Virus record (IMG/VR): IMGVR_UViG_3300008113_000007
Location: 64,001-117,858 of that record
DNA from: a virus
Taxonomy: Duplodnaviria; Heunggongvirae; Uroviricota; Caudoviricetes
Length of the DNA stretch: 53,858 nucleotides
Direction: 5' to 3' (one strand)
Under the pieces are notes generated by a model that was not told the origin of the DNA, did no database searches, and was given only the letters and a program-made list of their open reading frames with translations. Position numbers and translations under genes: made by a program. Shown one piece after another: positions 11,697 through 52,232 of the stretch (within the stretch, counting starts at the first letter, position 1; every line of letters starts with the position of its first letter).

Positions 11697-12618
11697 AAGT
11701 GTACTAATTACAGGCGGTGCGGGTTTCTTTGGATCCAAACTGGTTGAGAAGTTCCTGGACCGAGGGTACTCGGTCACGGTTTACGACAGCCTCATGTTCG
11801 GAGACGACGGTGTCAAACCTTTCCTTTCGAACGAGAACTACACATTCGTCAAAGGATGTGTCACGGACCATAAGAATCTGGCGGATGTCGTCGCAAAAAA
11901 CGAGATTGTCGTCAACTTGGCGGCGTACGTAGGTGAGCCGGTCTGTAAAAAGAACAAAGATACCGTTTACACCGTGAACACAGAGGCGGCGAAGTTCCTT
12001 TCGGGACTGTGCGAGAGCTCGGGCAAGAAGTTCGTTTTTCTCAGCACCTGCTCTAACTACGGAAAGAACGACGTCATGGTCGACGAGAACTCCGAGCTCA
12101 ACCCACTTGGCCTCTATTCGGACTCTAAGATAAAGGCCGAGAAGTTCATACTCGAGAACAGTAAAGGCCAGCTTATTCTAAGGTGTGCCACGCTGTTCGG
12201 TGTTTCTCATCGGATGAGAGTTGACCTCACAATAAATCAGTTCATTTACGAGATAAACAAAGACGGTTTTGTCAGCGTTTACGGCGAGGAGGCATGGAGG
12301 CCGTATCTGCATGTGGACGACGCATGTAACATGATACTCTTATCGATAGAGAACGATTTGAGCGGTGTTTACAATCTTGGCGACAAGACTCTAAACTACA
12401 CGAAAAGACAGATTGTCGACGAGCTTGCAAAGCACAAAGAGTTCAAACTCGAGCAGGTTGACTGGGACGATCCGAGAGACTACAAAGTCGAGTTCTCCAA
12501 GCTCAGAGAGACAATCGACTACGAAATAAAGTTCAGTCTCGAGAGTGGAATTCAGCAGCTCGAGGAATTCATACACGGTGAAGATTTCAAAAACAAAACC
12601 AGTATAAAGAATGATTAG
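11686..12618 (+). CDS. NAD-dependent nucleotide-sugar epimerase/dehydratase (extended SDR)
   Basis: VLITGGAGFFGS, VNLAAYVG, FLSTCSNYG, YSDSK (YxxxK) and WRPYLHVDD. Confidence 0.88.
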   Translation: MKDKSVLITGGAGFFGSKLVEKFLDRGYSVTVYDSLMFGDDGVKPFLSNENYTFVKGCVTDHKNLADVVAKNEIVVNLAAYVGEPVCKKNKDTVYTVNTEAAKFLSGLCESSGKKFVFLSTCSNYGKNDVMVDENSELNPLGLYSDSKIKAEKFILENSKGQLILRCATLFGVSHRMRVDLTINQFIYEINKDGFVSVYGEEAWRPYLHVDDACNMILLSIENDLSGVYNLGDKTLNYTKRQIVDELAKHKEFKLEQVDWDDPRDYKVEFSKLRETIDYEIKFSLESGIQQLEEFIHGEDFKNKTSIKND

Positions 12619-13138
12619 TGTTGGTGATGATGTTCTCATAGACAAAGACGTCGTGTTCAAACGTGAAAGCCTCGTTCGTATTGGCAACAGAGTTGCCATA
12701 GACAAGGGATTCTACTGCACTACGAAGCTAACGATTGGTGACTACGTGCACATATCACCTTACGTTACCTGCGTAGGAGGTGAGGCCGGCGAGTTTGTCT
12801 GCAAGGGCTTCAACAACATAATGGCCGGTGCCAGAATAGTCTGTTCTTCGGATAGATTTGACGGTAGCGGCCTCTTCGGTGCCATGATACCACAGGAACT
12901 AAAAGGTAAACAGATAGTGAAGCCTGTGGTTATGGAGGAGTTCTCGAACATCGGTACTAACTCGGTTGTACTACCTGGTTCTACGCTCAGGAGGGGAGTT
13001 CTTCTGGCCGCGGGTAGTCTGTTGATCGGAGATACCGAGGAATGGGGAGTCTATAAGGGTAACCCTGCGGTGTTGGTCAAGAAGATTGACCCTACTAAGA
13101 CACTGGAATATTCAAAATTACTTGGCTATGAGTTTTAA
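12611..13138 (+). CDS. left-handed beta-helix (hexapeptide) acetyltransferase
   Basis: Hexapeptide repeats (IGNRVAI, IGDYVHI), KPVVMEEFSNIGTNSVVLPG and YKGNPAVLVK. Confidence 0.85.
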   Translation: MISVGDDVLIDKDVVFKRESLVRIGNRVAIDKGFYCTTKLTIGDYVHISPYVTCVGGEAGEFVCKGFNNIMAGARIVCSSDRFDGSGLFGAMIPQELKGKQIVKPVVMEEFSNIGTNSVVLPGSTLRRGVLLAAGSLLIGDTEEWGVYKGNPAVLVKKIDPTKTLEYSKLLGYEF

Positions 13139-13715
13139 CTCTATACATAAGTTTGAGCAGGAAATCGCCGGTTTCTTTGGATCGCCGTACGCTGTCGCTG
13201 TCGACTGCTGCACCCACGCACTCGAGCTTTCGCTCATACTCACGAATGCCAAACGTATAAAGGTGCCCAACAGGACTTACGTCTCCGTACCGTTTCTTTC
13301 ACGTAAGCTCGGCATCGGTCTCGAATGGTCCTACGAAGACTGGAGTGAATACTACTACATCACCGACAGAGTAATCGACGCTGCCGTGCTCTGGAGAAGA
13401 GACAGTTACTTGCCTGGAACTTTCATGTGCGTGAGCTTCCAGTTCCGAAAGCACCTTTCACTGGGCAGGGGAGGTGTAATCCTTACCGACGATAAGGACT
13501 CTTACGATGAACTGAAGAAGCTCTCATACGACGGTAGGCTTCCTGACCAGCCATGGGCCACGCAAAACATAGCGTCTGTGGGCTATCACTACTATATGAC
13601 ACCGGAGACTGCAGAGCTCGGCCTCTCAAAATTACCGGATGCGATAGCCAAATCACCGGAGATATGGACTATCGACAATTGGCCGGATCTTACTCAGATG
13701 GACGTTTTCAAATAA
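13128..13715 (+). CDS. short DegT/DnrJ/EryC1/StrS-family PLP aminotransferase (195 aa)
   Basis: AVDCCTHALELSL, VPNRTYVS, DAAVL, SFQFRKHLSLGRGG (PLP lysine region) and GYHYYMTPETAELG. The likely start is ATG 13128, overlapping the upstream stop. Confidence 0.8.
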   Translation: MSFNSIHKFEQEIAGFFGSPYAVAVDCCTHALELSLILTNAKRIKVPNRTYVSVPFLSRKLGIGLEWSYEDWSEYYYITDRVIDAAVLWRRDSYLPGTFMCVSFQFRKHLSLGRGGVILTDDKDSYDELKKLSYDGRLPDQPWATQNIASVGYHYYMTPETAELGLSKLPDAIAKSPEIWTIDNWPDLTQMDVFK

Positions 13716-13721
13716 ATTCTT

Positions 13722-13748
13722 AAGAGTGTCGTTTGACACTCTTTTTTT
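13722..13748 (+). terminator. intrinsic terminator ending the sugar cassette
   Basis: AAGAGTGTC-gttt-GACACTCTT followed by a T run. Confidence 0.75.
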
Positions 13749-14209: not shown

Positions 14210-14548
14210 ATGAAAGAAAAGGTAGAGTACGTATGGAGAACGATGACCTCGCAAGAAATCTGGGAAGCAATGCCGAGATCAGAGCAAGAGATGAAGGTCG
14301 TTATAAAGCCATCATTCCCTACTTACAGATGGGGAAAACTAATCACAAAAACCGCAACCAACGACAAAGAGTCGATTGAGAAGGCTATAACAATACTGAA
14401 ATTGAAGGGTGAGACAGTCAGAAAGAGAATCTGTCACGAGACTACTACTAAAAACAAAAGCAGAGGATTTGGTACTTTCTACAAAATTGAGATAAAAACT
14501 ATAAAAAACCATCAAAATTATAAACAAAGTAAAAACGACGATATATAA
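14210..14548 (+). CDS. small basic hypothetical protein (112 aa)
   Basis: Likely start MKEKVEYVW at 14210, in frame with the track ORF 14111..14548. AT-rich codon use. Confidence 0.6.
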   Translation: MKEKVEYVWRTMTSQEIWEAMPRSEQEMKVVIKPSFPTYRWGKLITKTATNDKESIEKAITILKLKGETVRKRICHETTTKNKSRGFGTFYKIEIKTIKNHQNYKQSKNDDI

Positions 14549-14565
14549 CAATAACTAAGACAATA

Positions 14566-14947
14566 GCCGTAGTGAGAGACAAGGGTTACTTCGATTTTCT
14601 GAATATAATTTGACACACACCCTATCTCGACTTACTCGGTCGATATTGAACGCAGACATAGTCATAGTTTGAGATACTTCGATACAAATTCTAAACTATG
14701 AAAAGAAGAGCTTAGCGGCAGCGAAGCCATGAATGCCCGGGTCTAAGGAACCGCGGGACTAGTGAAAAAGCCCGTCCGGGGGACGTAAAGCTCATAGGAA
14801 AAGCCTTGTTTCCGATAAAAGAAAGGTAGGTTGGCCAGACCTCGATGGCCGGCAGAGTTTCGGGAGAATTCTCTGTGACGCTTAGGCTAAATTTTCTTGT
14901 CTGCTTTCCTATTAGACCGGTGTGCTTGCGCATCGGTCTTTTTTTTT
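14566..14947 (+). ncRNA. putative structured non-coding RNA(s) upstream of the Ro60/TROVE gene (Y-RNA-like candidate)
   Basis: About 380 nt with no credible ORF, tiled almost end to end by helices: 14566-14640, 14663-14700, 14708-14793, 14794-14912 and the terminator. GWTACTTCGAT occurs twice. The region is adjacent to a Ro60 homologue. Confidence 0.6.
14914..14947 (+). terminator. intrinsic terminator between the putative ncRNA and the TROVE gene
   Basis: AGACCGGTG-tgcttgcg-CATCGGTCT followed by 8 T, ending 21 nt before the TROVE ATG. Confidence 0.75.
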
Positions 14948-14968
14948 GGTACTAATTTTTTATAAGAT

Positions 14969-16411
14969 ATGGCAAAGTTCAACACAAAGTCGCCTAAGGC
15001 GAAGACACTAACAGAGAACCTGGCAGGAGGCCAGGCCTACAAGCAGTCCGACGAGCTCGCGCTCGCTTCCATTTTACTGACGTCGTTCGTTAGCGACCAG
15101 TTCTACCGCGGATCCTCGGACACGCTGTCCGAGGTGAAGTCGCTTCTTTCCAAGGTAGATCCTGTATTCGCGGCTAAGGCTGCGATCTACGCAAGGGATC
15201 GTTTCGGAATGAGGTCGATAACGCACGCACTTGCAGGCGAGATTGCGCCTTTGGCATCCGGTGCAGAGTGGGGCAAGTCCTTCTACGAGAAGGTTGTCTC
15301 CAGGCCGGACGACATGACCGAGATCCTCTCGTACTATATGTCGATAAACGGCAAGGGTAAGGTGAAGTTCCCTAACTCCATCAAGAAGGGGTTCGCCGCG
15401 GCGTTCGACAAGTTCGACGACTACCAAATCGCGAAGTACAAGATGTCGAACAGGAACGTGAAGCTGGTAGACGTCGTGAACCTGGTGCACCCAGTACCTA
15501 CGGACAGGAACAAAGAGGCGCTGTCTCTACTTATTGCGGACAAGTTGAAGAGCACCGACACCTGGGAGGCCAAGCTTTCCGCCGCAGGACAGGCAGCTGG
15601 CAACGCAGAAGAGCTCGAGGTGCTGAAGTCGAACGCATGGAACGAGTTAGTCTCGACCAGGAAGATTGGCTACTTCGCGCTTCTTAGGAACCTGAGGAAC
15701 ATCATCGAGCAGGCTCCTGACGCAATCCCTGCGACGTGTGAGATGCTAGTAGACGCGAGGCTAATCTCCAAGAGCAAGGTTCTTCCTTTCAGGTTCGCGA
15801 CCGCGTACGACGAGATTTCCAGGCTCGGTGGCTCCCAGGAGGTAAGAGACGTCCTGGTGGCGATCAACAACGCGCTTGAGGTGTCAATCGTGAACGTGCC
15901 TAGGTTGGAAAACTGTCTGGTCGTGATGGACGTGTCCGGATCGATGAGTGGTAGGCCTTCCGAGATAGCGAGCCTTTTCGGCGCCGTGCTCGCGAAGGTG
16001 AACTCCTGCGACGTGATGACTTTCGCCGAGAGCGCGAGGTACATGAGCTACAACCCGCTCGACTCAGTGATGTCGATCAGGAAGTCGTTCAGGTTCAGCG
16101 GAGGTGGTACGAACTTTCCTTCCATCTTCAAGACGGCGAAGAAGGCTTACGACAACATAATCATCCTGAGCGATATGCAGGGATGGATCGGCTACTACAC
16201 ACCTACCAAGGAGTTCAACGAGTGGAAGAAGAGGACCGGTGCCAACCCGCACGTGTTCTCTTGGGACCTCGCGGGACACAGCACGCTTCAGTTTCCTGAG
16301 AGCCAGGTTTACTGTCTGGTGGGCTTCTCCGAGAAGGTGTTCGACGTGATGGAGCTGCTGAAGACCGACAGGGCCGCGCTGGTCAACGAGATCAAGGCGA
16401 TTGAGCTTTAG
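14969..16411 (+). CDS. Ro60/Rsr-like TROVE-domain RNA-binding protein with vWA domain
   Basis: ENLAGGQAY, LLTSFVSDQFY, AAIYARDRFGMRS, DDYQIAKYK, IGYFALLRNLRNI, LPFRFATAY, vWA MIDAS DVSGSMS, GGTNF and SDMQ. Confidence 0.92.
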   Translation: MAKFNTKSPKAKTLTENLAGGQAYKQSDELALASILLTSFVSDQFYRGSSDTLSEVKSLLSKVDPVFAAKAAIYARDRFGMRSITHALAGEIAPLASGAEWGKSFYEKVVSRPDDMTEILSYYMSINGKGKVKFPNSIKKGFAAAFDKFDDYQIAKYKMSNRNVKLVDVVNLVHPVPTDRNKEALSLLIADKLKSTDTWEAKLSAAGQAAGNAEELEVLKSNAWNELVSTRKIGYFALLRNLRNIIEQAPDAIPATCEMLVDARLISKSKVLPFRFATAYDEISRLGGSQEVRDVLVAINNALEVSIVNVPRLENCLVVMDVSGSMSGRPSEIASLFGAVLAKVNSCDVMTFAESARYMSYNPLDSVMSIRKSFRFSGGGTNFPSIFKTAKKAYDNIIILSDMQGWIGYYTPTKEFNEWKKRTGANPHVFSWDLAGHSTLQFPESQVYCLVGFSEKVFDVMELLKTDRAALVNEIKAIEL

Positions 16412-16416
16412 AAGAG

Positions 16417-16443
16417 ACGGGACGAAAGTCCCGTTTTCTTTTT
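16417..16443 (+). terminator. intrinsic terminator after TROVE gene
   Basis: ACGGGAC-gaaa-GTCCCGT followed by a T-rich run. Confidence 0.75.
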
Positions 16444-16455
16444 AATATATAACGT

Positions 16456-51795: not shown

Positions 51796-52232
51796 CTATG
51801 ACTCAATTCTCTTTTCGTGTCACGGTCTATGTCGCGTTTCTTGATGTCCTCCTTCTTGTTCCAGAGCTTCTTGCCCTTGCAGACGCCAATCTTCGCCTTT
51901 ATGCGGTTGTTCTTCAGGTGCAGGTCCAGGAGTATCATAGTGCTTCCCTTCTCCTCCATCATCCTGTCAATCTTCCTGATTTCCTTCTTGTTCAGCAGAA
52001 GCTTCTTCTCGCGGTTCTCGTCGTGCTTCTCGGCCTTGTGCGCCTGCTTGTATGAAGCGATACGCATGTTCTTCACGAATATCTCGCCAGCCTTGAAGTA
52101 AGCGAAAGAGTCACCGATAGTGACGTCGCCGCCGCGTATCGACTTGACCTCGGATCCCGTCAGTATTATTCCTGTCTCGAAGTCCTCGAGCACCGTGAAT
52201 TCGTGGTATGCTTTCCTGTTCTTTATCATCAT
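51792..52232 (-). CDS. smpB: SsrA (tmRNA)-binding protein
   Basis: NRKAYHEF, ETGIILTGSEVKSIR, REKKLLLNKKEI and KGKKLWNKKEDIKKRD. Confidence 0.92.
   Translation of the reverse strand: MMIKNRKAYHEFTVLEDFETGIILTGSEVKSIRGGDVTIGDSFAYFKAGEIFVKNMRIASYKQAHKAEKHDENREKKLLLNKKEIRKIDRMMEEKGSTMILLDLHLKNNRIKAKIGVCKGKKLWNKKEDIKKRDIDRDTKRELSHR

What the first reader, a model, noticed from the sequence alone, without database searches (positions are those of the whole stretch)
14540..16443. Self-contained phage Ro60 module: structured RNA, internal terminator, Ro60 gene, terminator
Seen: ATATATA at 14541, about 380 nt of structured sequence, a strong intrinsic terminator (14914-14947) only 21 nt before the ATG of an intact TROVE/vWA gene, then a second terminator. 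No RtcB, PNPase or other usual partner gene is adjacent. Known: bacterial Ro60/Rsr works with Y RNAs encoded beside it, in RNA decay and repair after stress. Inference: the phage makes a discrete abundant ncRNA plus lower-level Ro60 by read-through or attenuation. This RNP may protect or repair RNA, or decoy host anticodon nucleases. The same window carries smpB, which also points to defence of translation. This is the best candidate here for an undescribed system.
Basis: partly seen in the sequence, partly recalled or inferred. Interest (0 to 1): 0.85.

Follow-up and report, generated by a model that had tools for sequence, protein, structure and literature searches.

The report
Phage Ro60 gene with Y-RNAs
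A freshwater giant phage carries a gene for the RNA-binding ring protein Ro60, preceded by two conserved small RNAs of the kind that partner Ro60 in bacteria; the pairing is known, but the larger RNA carries a knotted domain I found described nowhere.

Summary
A 420-nt non-coding gap (14549-14968) precedes an intact 480-aa TROVE/vWA gene. A strong terminator ends 21 nt before the ATG, and a second terminator follows the stop codon.

The gap holds two RNA modules.
- M1 (14566-14641) is a long hairpin.
- M2 (14652-14904) is a closed domain with at least two, probably three, pseudoknots.

Both share one "handle": UAGYGA, 9-11 nt, UUACUUCG, with AAYUUWCUY on the return strand. The RNA pair lies upstream of a TROVE gene in every one of the 64 contigs long enough to judge (67 in all), and it shows strong compensatory covariation.

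In more distant phage TROVE loci the same handle carries permuted tRNA-like heads. These match Rfam YrlA below its threshold. M1 and M2 themselves do not match YrlA.

Contigs from three metatranscriptome studies cover the RNA.

So this is a diverged phage Ro60/Y-RNA module, not an undescribed system. New here are M2's pseudoknotted head in place of the tRNA mimic, the handle variant and the conserved terminator. This scan has noted similar handle-RNA arrays beside Ro60-like genes on other DNA. Attenuation and anticodon-nuclease decoy ideas are not supported.

The parts
14540..14548 (+). AT-rich promoter-like box GATATATAA, about 20 nt before M1
   Evidence: The main family has a conserved TTAAAACTTTTT-N12-13-ATATAAAAG about 25-45 nt before M1. 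Promoter function was not tested, and no sigma-70 consensus was found here.
14566..14641 (+). M1: short Y-RNA-like hairpin (YrlB-like). It has lower stem CCG/CGG, handle helix UAGUGA (14570-14575) with CUUACUC, a covarying upper stem, and UUACUUCG (14586-14593) at the 5' side of the loop.
   Evidence: Covariation on 40 distinct sequences: 96.7% of cells paired against 90.5% in shuffles; 8 pairs changed on both sides; slid controls 29-50%. Model R1 scores it 53 bits.
14642..14651 (+). Spacer A. In the main family it is complementary to the spacer before the terminator.
   Evidence: Own-sequence duplex -3.1 kcal/mol against -1.2 for shuffles. The pairing is weak in the window itself (-0.3).
14652..14904 (+). 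M2: large Y-RNA-like module. Closing stem GCAGACA/UGUCUGC; handle UAGUCA (14659-14664) and AUACUUCG (14674-14681); return strand CUUAGGCUAAAUUUUCUUG (14881-14899).
   Evidence: 55 pairs, 97.4% paired against 93.7% in shuffles (maximum 94.3). 106 cells changed on both sides against 31.9 (maximum 44). The closing stem covaries GCAAAC/GUUUGC, GCAGAC/GUCUGC, GCAAGC/GCUUGC.
14710..14772 (+). M2 head, first part: short hairpin GCU(14710-12)/AGC(14725-27). Its loop GGC (14717-19) pairs with GCC (14770-72) after the A-run (pseudoknot). Between them lies a variable hairpin (14735-14758) closed by CAU/GUG.
   Evidence: Alignment A4 columns 168-170/223-225: CG 25, UA 12, AU 9. Columns 213-215/292-294: GC 38/AU 9 and AU 44/GC 3. 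Columns 226-229/282-285 also covary.
14797..14826 (+). Hairpin GGAAA/UUUCC (14797-14801/14809-14813). Its loop CCUU (14804-07) can pair with AAGG (14823-26), giving pseudoknot PK1.
   Evidence: Loop and downstream partner change together across the family: UUCAG:CUGAG, UUCAU:AUGAG, UUCAGCU:AGCUGAG, AGUUU:AAACU. Own duplex -3.5 against -1.1 kcal/mol for shuffled loops. This part is absent from the short forms of the family.
14824..14851 (+). Hairpin AGGU/ACCU (14824-27/14839-42). Its loop UGGCCA (14832-37) pairs with UGGCCG (14846-51), giving pseudoknot PK2.
   Evidence: Fully compensatory within the window's lineage: UGGCCA:UGGCCG (window), GGUCA:UGACC (L003), GACCA:UGGUC (L043). The main family has GAUGG:CUAUC or UAUGG:CUAUA.
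14851..14877 (+). Conserved hairpin: CAGAG/CUCUG, then UUC-GGGA-GAA (GNRA-type loop)
   Evidence: CAAAG/CUUUG, CAGAG/CUCUG and CGAAG/CUUCG covary.
14914..14947 (+). Intrinsic terminator: stem AGACCGGUGUGC/GCGCAUCGGUCU, then U9. It ends 21 nt before the ATG.
   Evidence: A hairpin plus U-run (matched as GGTYT4+ within 110 nt after M2) was found in 61 of 67 loci. The stem GACCAGA/UCUGGUC is nearly invariant in the main family.
14969..16411 (+). Ro60-type gene (TROVE + vWA with DVSGSM), 480 aa
   Evidence: Pfam TROVE 2e-18. phiLo Ro60 structure 9KOP, E 8e-24 over residues 12-470. Relatives of 33-93% identity in IMG/VR.
16414..16445 (+). Second intrinsic-terminator-like hairpin closing the cassette
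   Evidence: 10 pairs, 5 G-C, then CTTTTT.

Best explanation
The locus is one transcription unit of a phage Ro60 ribonucleoprotein. Its order is: promoter-like box, M1, M2, leaky intrinsic terminator, Ro60 gene, second terminator.

M1 and M2 are diverged Y RNAs of the bacterial YrlB/YrlA lineage. Each has the same protein-binding handle: a conserved-sequence helix UAGYGA/AYUUWCUY, a covarying stem, and UUACUUCG at the junction. Each carries a different head.
- M1's head is a small A-rich loop.
- M2's head is a roughly 200-nt domain folded by at least two, probably three, pseudoknots. It takes the place that a permuted tRNA mimic holds in relatives.

Inferred steps:
- Ro60 binds the handles.
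- The heads tether or exclude other factors. The precedents are host PNPase in Deinococcus, Salmonella and Thermus phage phiLo.
- The particle thereby redirects RNA decay or quality control during infection.
- The terminator makes the RNAs far more abundant than the Ro60 message, which arises by read-through.

Shown here: the anatomy, conservation, covariation, linkage to the gene, homology of the protein, the bridge to YrlA through relatives, and presence of the RNA in RNA libraries.

Not shown here: binding, partners and the biological effect.
For: Linkage. An 18-nt word of M2 retrieved 18 true IMG/VR loci and many metagenome loci. Of 67 loci with a complete M2, all 64 that extend far enough have a TROVE start within 400 nt downstream on the same strand.

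Structure. M1. M2: (97.4% paired; 106 double-change cells against a shuffle maximum of 44). Pseudoknots.

Family.
- UACUUCG occurs 102 times on the sense strand in the 700 nt upstream of 66 TROVE genes (33-93% protein identity), and never on the antisense strand.
- The covariance model of M1 finds 60 places in 46 sources. All are on the + strand and nearly all upstream of TROVE, down to 34% protein identity.

Bridge to a known family. In relatives the handle carries a T-arm, an acceptor-like hairpin and a D-arm. These match Rfam YrlA RF02553 over its full length at 29-42 bits, E 4e-6 to 0.03, below gathering.

Motifs and layout.
- The YUAY motif of YrlA is present as UUAC/AUAC.
- UAGYGA sits 9-11 nt before it, where YrlA has GNCGAA (PMC4201824).
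- Two Y RNAs upstream of Ro60 on one precursor, one of them a long hairpin, is the pattern described in bacteria (PMC4201824). phiLo also has two upstream Y-like RNAs (PMC12135203).

Protein. The closest solved structure is phiLo Ro60.

Expression.
- Metatranscriptome runs from three studies hold 37-42% of the sampled words of the 420-nt stretch.
- Their contigs cover 14582-14904, 14605-14876 and 14704-14875.
- Contigs of two RNA studies stop at 14899-14904, where a probably-DNA run continues. This is a weak hint that the mature 3' end lies at the end of M2.
Against: - Neither M1 nor M2 matches Rfam YrlA, Y_RNA, tRNA or tmRNA, even at E <= 10.
- M2's membership of the handle family rests on shared motifs, spacing and covarying closing stems. 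The M1 model does not align it, because of the 230-nt insert.
- The handle parts of M2, including the long-range pairing AUAGUUUGAG with CUUAGGCUA, never vary, so covariation says nothing about them. A local hairpin (14663-14673 with 14691-14700) competes for the same bases.
- The protein scores far below NCBIfam's Rsr equivalog cut-off (24 against 900 bits).
- No binding, processing or phenotype data exist.
- RNA-library contigs cannot show ends, strand or level.
Confidence: 0.72

Rival explanations
1. The 400-nt region is mainly a cis-acting leader. Ro60 (or another signal) binds it and decides whether the terminator forms, so the gene regulates itself, as ribosomal-protein leaders do. The 3' strand of M1 (CUCGGUC) would pair with the 5' arm of the terminator (GACCG) as an antiterminator. 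The 5' strand of M1 would act as anti-antiterminator.
For: - The terminator sits 21 nt before the ATG with no room for a promoter.
- In the main family the M1 lower helix and the terminator helix carry the same letters (CCAG/CUGGUC). In the window's lineage both lost the same A-U pair (CCG/CGGUC).
- The spacers on either side of M2 are complementary.
Against: - With the M1-3'/terminator-5' pairing enforced, the RNA is on average 7.2 kcal/mol less stable than the terminator state. The unconstrained minimum is the terminator state in 47 of 47 sequences.
- L068 has the CCG/CGG form in M1 but CCAG/CUGG in its terminator, so the two helices do not always change together.
- The spacer pairing is compatible with the terminator state.
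- Half of the wider clade (40 of 80 loci) has no terminator before TROVE.
- The handle is shared with free-standing YrlA-like RNAs.
Confidence: 0.12
2. M2 is a stable RNA with a job of its own, such as a partner of another protein, a decoy or a ribozyme. It merely travels with the Ro60 cassette. Only M1 would be a Ro60 partner.
For: - M2's head matches nothing in Rfam.
- It is a compact multi-pseudoknot fold, as seen in RNAs with autonomous function.
- Contigs of relatives in RNA libraries start near 14655-14664 and end near 14880-14904, which is M2 alone.
Against: - M2 keeps UAGYGA, the 10-nt spacing, UACUUCG and the AAYUUWCUY return strand, exactly as M1 and the distant modules do.
- It was never found without a TROVE gene downstream wherever that could be judged.
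Confidence: 0.12
3. The region is not a functional RNA. It would be an AT-rich spacer with chance hairpins, or it would encode a small protein (for example the minus-strand ORF 14712-14933, 73 aa).
For: The single-sequence fold is only marginally better than shuffles (z = -2.1). An ORF of 73 aa exists on the minus strand.
Against: - Blocks are conserved at about 87% in relatives whose protein is only 66% identical.
- Compensatory changes occur in more than ten helices.
- Insertions and deletions fall in whole hairpins rather than codons.
- The motif and the model hits are strand-specific.
Confidence: 0.02

Closest known systems
Bacterial Ro60 (Rsr) with YrlA/YrlB or Yrn1/Yrn2 Y RNAs (Salmonella, M. 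smegmatis, D. radiodurans; also 22 phages; Chen et al. 2014, PMC4201824; Rfam RF02553)
   Same: - Two RNAs lie just upstream of the Ro60 gene on the same strand.
- One is a long hairpin (YrlB/Yrn2-like, here M1).
- The 5' and 3' ends form a stem.
- A YUAY motif (UUAC) is present, with a conserved purine-rich motif 9-11 nt before it.
- Relatives of this locus carry the permuted T-arm/acceptor/D-arm head and match RF02553 weakly.
   Different: - M1 and M2 do not match RF02553 at all.
- GNCGAA is replaced by UAGYGA, and UACUUCG is invariant.
- The second RNA has a multi-pseudoknot head of about 200 nt instead of a tRNA mimic.
- A strong terminator separates the RNAs from the gene.
- No RtcB/RtcA neighbour was found in the held (about 50% complete) record.
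Thermus phage phiLo Ro60 with Yrl1 and Yrl2 (PDB 9KOP, 9L5Y; PMC12135203)
   Same: - It is the closest solved protein (E 8e-24, full length).
- It is a phage Ro60 with two Y-like RNAs in the upstream non-coding region.
- That paper shows binding and ternary complexes with host PNPase in vitro.
   Different: - Protein identity is only about 26%.
- The phiLo RNAs were defined by CGAA motifs.
- The one UACUUCG in the phiLo upstream region lies in a stretch that reads as a protein-like frame, and I take it for chance.
- phiLo has no M2-like domain.
Ribosomal-protein leaders and other protein-sensing terminator/antiterminator attenuators
   Same: A structured leader that resembles the protein's RNA ligand, followed by an intrinsic terminator just before the gene.
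   Different: No conserved antiterminator was found. The RNA modules are homologous to trans-acting Y RNAs.

Membership tests
Ro60/TROVE protein family | TROVE domain | tested here: met
   Pfam PF05731, 67 bits against a cut-off of 23, E 2e-18.
Ro60/TROVE protein family | C-terminal vWA domain with MIDAS DxSxS | tested here: inconclusive
   vWA_Ro60 PF25045 scores 22.1 bits, below its cut-off of 27.7. DVSGSM does align with the same motif of phiLo Ro60.
Ro60/TROVE protein family | Full-length likeness to a Ro60 of solved ring structure | tested here: met
   9KOP/9L5Y, E 8e-24, residues 12-470 on 18-488. 2NVO (Rsr), E 1.7e-6, C-terminal half only. The ring fold itself was not modelled.
Rsr equivalog (NCBIfam NF041674) | Score above the curated cut-off | tested here: not met
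   24 bits against 900. It is a diverged phage branch, not an Rsr equivalog.
YrlA (Rfam RF02553) | Match to the covariance model at gathering score | tested here: not met
   No match at E <= 10 in the whole 118-kb record or in the gap. Relatives' modules reach 29-42 bits against a gathering score of 69.
YrlA (Rfam RF02553) | tRNA-like domain (T-arm, acceptor-like hairpin, D-arm) | tested here: not met
   ARAGORN and Rfam tRNA/tmRNA find nothing in the window's gap. The domain is present in relatives.
YrlA (Rfam RF02553) | GNCGAAN0-1G near the 5' end and YUAY before the variable loop (PMC4201824) | tested here: inconclusive
   YUAY is present as UUAC (M1) and AUAC (M2). At the place of GNCGAA stands UAGUGA (M1) or UAGUCA (window M2; UAGCGA in the main family).
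Y RNA (by function) | Encoded within a few kb of Ro60 on the same strand | tested here: met
   64 of 64 judgeable loci.
Y RNA (by function) | Stem formed by the 5' and 3' ends, with a conserved protein-binding helix | tested here: met
   M1. M2 closing stem. Conserved-sequence helix UAGYGA/AYUUWCUY.
Y RNA (by function) | Bound by Ro60 and stabilised by it | not testable with these tools
   Needs co-immunoprecipitation or a gel shift.
Terminator/antiterminator attenuator | Conserved alternative pairing that excludes the terminator | tested here: not met
   The candidate pairing costs 7.2 kcal/mol on average and is never the minimum. L068 breaks the co-variation.
tmRNA | Match to RF00023 or ARAGORN tmRNA | tested here: not met
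   None in the gap. The record's tmRNA candidate lies elsewhere.

The most novel reading that the evidence does not exclude
M2's head would be a new class of structured RNA domain: at least two, probably three, pseudoknots, about 200 nt, with no Rfam relative. In one lineage of freshwater giant phages it has replaced the tRNA mimic of YrlA-type Y RNAs. It would give the Ro60 particle a different partner or target than the tRNA-like heads do. Candidates are another nuclease, the ribosome, or the phage's own tmRNA/SmpB system. Alternatively it would work as a Ro60-dependent switch together with the conserved terminator.
Probability: 0.3. Interest if true: 0.75.

Novelty: new variant of a known kind. 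Interest (0 to 1): 0.55.

Why it matters
Ro60/Y-RNA particles are understood in only a few bacteria and one phage, and what the Y-RNA "head" does is an open question.

This phage clade offers a natural series. One conserved handle carries permuted tRNA mimics, unpermuted tRNA-like domains, plain loops or, here, a multi-pseudoknot domain. The modules come in arrays of one to four.

That series makes the question testable: which head recruits what?

It also provides:
- a defined binding motif to mutate;
- an RNA present in lake metatranscriptome libraries;
- a compact cassette (RNAs, terminator, gene, terminator) that can be moved into a laboratory host.

Tried and rejected
- Rfam at gathering score on the whole window, and at E <= 10 on 14300-15100, gave only chance-level matches. 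The best, the L20 leader at E 0.22, merely aligned the terminator.
- ARAGORN found no tRNA or tmRNA in the window.
- I considered M2 as a tmRNA (smpB is in the window), as a reduced RNase P RNA (GGUGAAAAAGUCCG recalls the P4 region, from memory only) and as a tRNA-like cloverleaf. No model supports any of these.
- A pairing of CGAUAGUU with AACUAUCG was dropped. The 3' partner pairs instead with the loop of the neighbouring hairpin (PK2).
- The UACUUCG in the phiLo upstream region lies in a protein-like frame and is taken as chance.
- Three of the 21 IMG/VR word matches were chance, as were many of the metagenome word matches.
- Read laying: the three RNA runs gave no contig over 14300-14521 or over the TROVE gene.
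- The M1 model run without filters does not align M2.
- No sigma-70 promoter consensus was found before M1.
Full report
**What is there**

The window is part of a 118-kb IMG/VR virus record. Lake and freshwater metagenomes hold most of this stretch.

- Between the ORF ending at 14548 and the ATG at 14969 lie 420 non-coding bases.
- An intrinsic-terminator-like hairpin (14914-14939, then nine T) ends 21 nt before the ATG. A second one (16414-16437) follows the stop codon.
- The ORF (480 aa) carries a TROVE domain (Pfam, 2e-18) and a vWA part that scores below cut-off.
- It aligns over its full length with the solved Ro60 of Thermus phage phiLo (9KOP/9L5Y, E 8e-24), including the DVSGSM metal-site motif.
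- It is far from NCBIfam's Rsr equivalog.
- The neighbouring ORFs match no family.

**Is the gap a real RNA?**

Folding the single sequence is only marginally better than chance (z = -2.1), and Rfam and ARAGORN find nothing. The comparison with relatives decides it.

- A 634-kb uncultured phage whose Ro60 is 66% identical keeps blocks of the gap at about 87% identity.
- One 18-nt block (ATAGTTTRAGATACTTCG) retrieved 18 true homologues from IMG/VR and many more from metagenomes.
- Of 67 loci with a complete M2, all 64 that reach far enough have a TROVE start within 400 nt downstream on the same strand. The other three contigs end first.
- Flanking genes are shared only with the closest lineage. 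The RNAs, the terminator and the gene therefore travel as one cassette.

**Anatomy**

Alignments of 16 and then 47 distinct sequences (A3, A4) show two modules.

M1 (14566-14641) is a long hairpin.
- The lower stem is CCG/CGG (CCAG/CUGG in the main family).
- Next comes a conserved-sequence helix, UAGUGA with CUUACUC.
- Next comes a freely covarying upper stem.
- UUACUUCG (14586-14593) opens the loop, and an A-rich run closes it.
- On 40 distinct sequences 96.7% of cells pair, against 90.5% in shuffles. Eight pairs change on both sides. Sliding the partner drops pairing to 29-50%.

M2 (14652-14904) is closed by GCAGACA/UGUCUGC, which covaries (GCAAAC/GUUUGC, GCAAGC/GCUUGC).
- Its 5' strand repeats the plan of M1 at the same spacing: UAGYGA, 10 nt, UACUUCG. 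In the window this reads UAGUCA at 14659-14664 and AUACUUCG at 14674-14681.
- Its 3' strand carries the same AAYUUWCUY.
- Inside is a head of about 200 nt. It holds a three-pair hairpin with three pair types at its middle position (CG 25, UA 12, AU 9).
- The loop of that hairpin pairs with GUC after an A-run (GC 38/AU 9).
- A variable hairpin follows, then an optional hairpin whose loop pairs downstream.
- A further hairpin has a loop that pairs seven bases downstream. This last pseudoknot is fully compensated within the window's own lineage: UGGCCA:UGGCCG, GGUCA:UGACC, GACCA:UGGUC.
- The head ends with a conserved GNRA-capped hairpin.
- Over 55 pairs, 97.4% of cells pair, against 93.7% in shuffles (maximum 94.3). 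There are 106 double-change cells against 31.9 (maximum 44).

Unresolved: the invariant AUAGUUUGAG (14664-14673) can pair either locally (14691-14699) or with CUUAGGCUA (14881-14889). Because it never varies, covariation cannot choose between them.

**What family is it?**

- The 7-mer UACUUCG occurs 102 times on the sense strand in the 700 nt upstream of 66 phage TROVE genes of 33-93% identity. It occurs one to four times per locus and never on the antisense strand.
- A covariance model built from M1 alone finds 60 places in 46 sources. All are on the + strand and nearly all upstream of TROVE, down to 34% protein identity. They include loci without the exact 7-mer.
- In these relatives the same handle often carries a T-arm, an acceptor-like hairpin and a D-arm in the permuted order described for YrlA. 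These modules match Rfam YrlA (RF02553) over its whole length at 29-42 bits, E 4e-6 to 0.03, below its gathering score of 69.
- Others carry unpermuted tRNA-like heads that match the tRNA model at positions 3-68.
- The UUAC of UUACUUCG corresponds to the YUAY that opens the variable loop of YrlA. UAGYGA sits where YrlA has GNCGAA (PMC4201824).
[quoted passage not shown] In M. smegmatis both lie upstream of Rsr on one precursor (PMC4201824).
- phiLo has two Y-like RNAs upstream of its Ro60. They bind it and, together with it, bind host PNPase in vitro (PMC12135203).

The window's locus is thus a diverged member of the Ro60/Y-RNA kind. M1 and M2 themselves fail the RF02553 test outright, and M2's head has no described relative.

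**Expression**

- Metatranscriptome runs of three studies hold 37-42% of the sampled words of the 420-nt stretch.
- Laid on the window, their contigs cover 14582-14904 (324 nt, 98% alike), 14605-14876 and 14704-14875. Contigs of relatives span M2 only.
- Contigs of two RNA studies stop at 14899-14904, where a probably-DNA run goes on. This is a weak hint that the mature RNA ends at the foot of M2, before the terminator hairpin.
- Contigs cannot give ends, strand or level.

**How it most likely works**

The shown facts fit a unit in which a promoter-like box drives M1 and M2.
- The box is GATATATAA at 14540 in the window. The main family has a conserved TTAAAACTTTTT-N12-13-ATATAAAAG.
- Most transcripts would stop at the terminator, and Ro60 would be made by read-through. 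The 21 nt before the ATG leave no room for a promoter.
- By homology, Ro60 would bind the two handles, and the heads would engage other factors. PNPase is the precedent.

None of this was tested. No RtcB is in the record.

**Attenuation**

- In the main family the lower helix of M1 and the terminator helix share CCAG/CUGGUC. In the window's lineage both lost the same A-U pair. This suggested a trp-like 1:2/3:4 against 2:3 switch.
- Enforcing the 2:3 pairing costs 7.2 kcal/mol on average, and the terminator state is the minimum in 47 of 47 sequences.
- L068 changed M1 alone.
- Half of the wider clade has no terminator.

I keep autoregulation only as a minor rival.

**The smpB link**

The same record has smpB (window 51801-52226, minus strand) and a diverged tmRNA candidate outside the window (33 bits, full length). 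Together these would form their own pair. Nothing connects them to the module, beyond the general theme that such phages carry translation-related RNAs.

**Novelty**

Phage Ro60 genes with Y-like RNAs are in the literature (PMC4201824, PMC12135203, PMC7824862). This scan has repeatedly noted handle-RNA arrays beside Ro60-like genes on other DNA.

What I did not find described:
- the UAGYGA...UUACUUCG handle variant;
- the multi-pseudoknot head of M2;
- the conserved RNA-terminator-gene layout.

I rate it a new variant of a known kind.

Noticed in passing
window 51801-52226 (-); G000:C1:22289-22660 (+), outside the window: The phage record encodes SmpB (162 bits). It also has a diverged full-length tmRNA candidate (33 bits, below the gathering score of 47; E 4.5e-13). 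So it seems to carry its own trans-translation pair.
   Followed up: partly
L006:1279-1618 (IMGVR_UViG_3300012943_000001): A relative with a 42%-identical Ro60 has a clear tmRNA gene (88 bits) 1.4 kb upstream of the Ro60 gene. A minihelix with a T-arm, an acceptor stem and a CCA end lies at about 2808-2857, in the Ro60 leader.
   Followed up: no
L004:2690-2975; also L159:1290-1356, L164:1325-1388, L175:1204-1266: Within one clade the same handle carries both permuted (YrlA-type) and unpermuted tRNA-like heads. The latter match the tRNA model only at positions 3-68. L004's third module is a tRNA-Tyr-like body (anticodon GUA) whose 5' acceptor strand is the UACUUCG motif itself.
   Followed up: partly
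L017, within its M2 variable hairpin (alignment A4 columns 230-280): One family member has an insert, GUAGGUUCAAUCUCUAACGAG, that is nearly identical to the T-arm region of L004's tRNA-like head. It sits at the site of M2's variable hairpin. This hints that heads are exchanged between modules.
   Followed up: no
main-family loci, 25-45 nt and about 110 nt upstream of M1: Two conserved upstream elements exist. One is the box TTAAAACTTTTT-N12-13-ATATAAAAG. Further up lies a hairpin, AATCCACCTTYGAAAAAAACGAAATTTTAGAGGTKGAT, followed by ATATAC. The window's lineage lacks the hairpin.
   Followed up: no
window 14567-14569/14636-14641 and 14916-14920/14934-14938: The lower helix of M1 and the terminator helix share their sequence (CCAG/CUGGUC in the main family, CCG/CGGUC here). 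They mostly change together, with L068 as an exception. The reason is unexplained. Possibilities are the same protein binding both, gene conversion, or a rare alternative pairing.
   Followed up: partly
L156, L159, L172, L176, L178 downstream of TROVE: Several Ro60 cassettes of the wider clade lie directly beside arrays of 3-9 ordinary tRNA genes.
   Followed up: no
window 12611-13715: Just upstream lie a hexapeptide-repeat acetyltransferase (NeuD/PglB-like) and a fragmentary DegT/PseC-like aminotransferase match. A terminator-like hairpin at 13722-13743 follows them.
   Followed up: no
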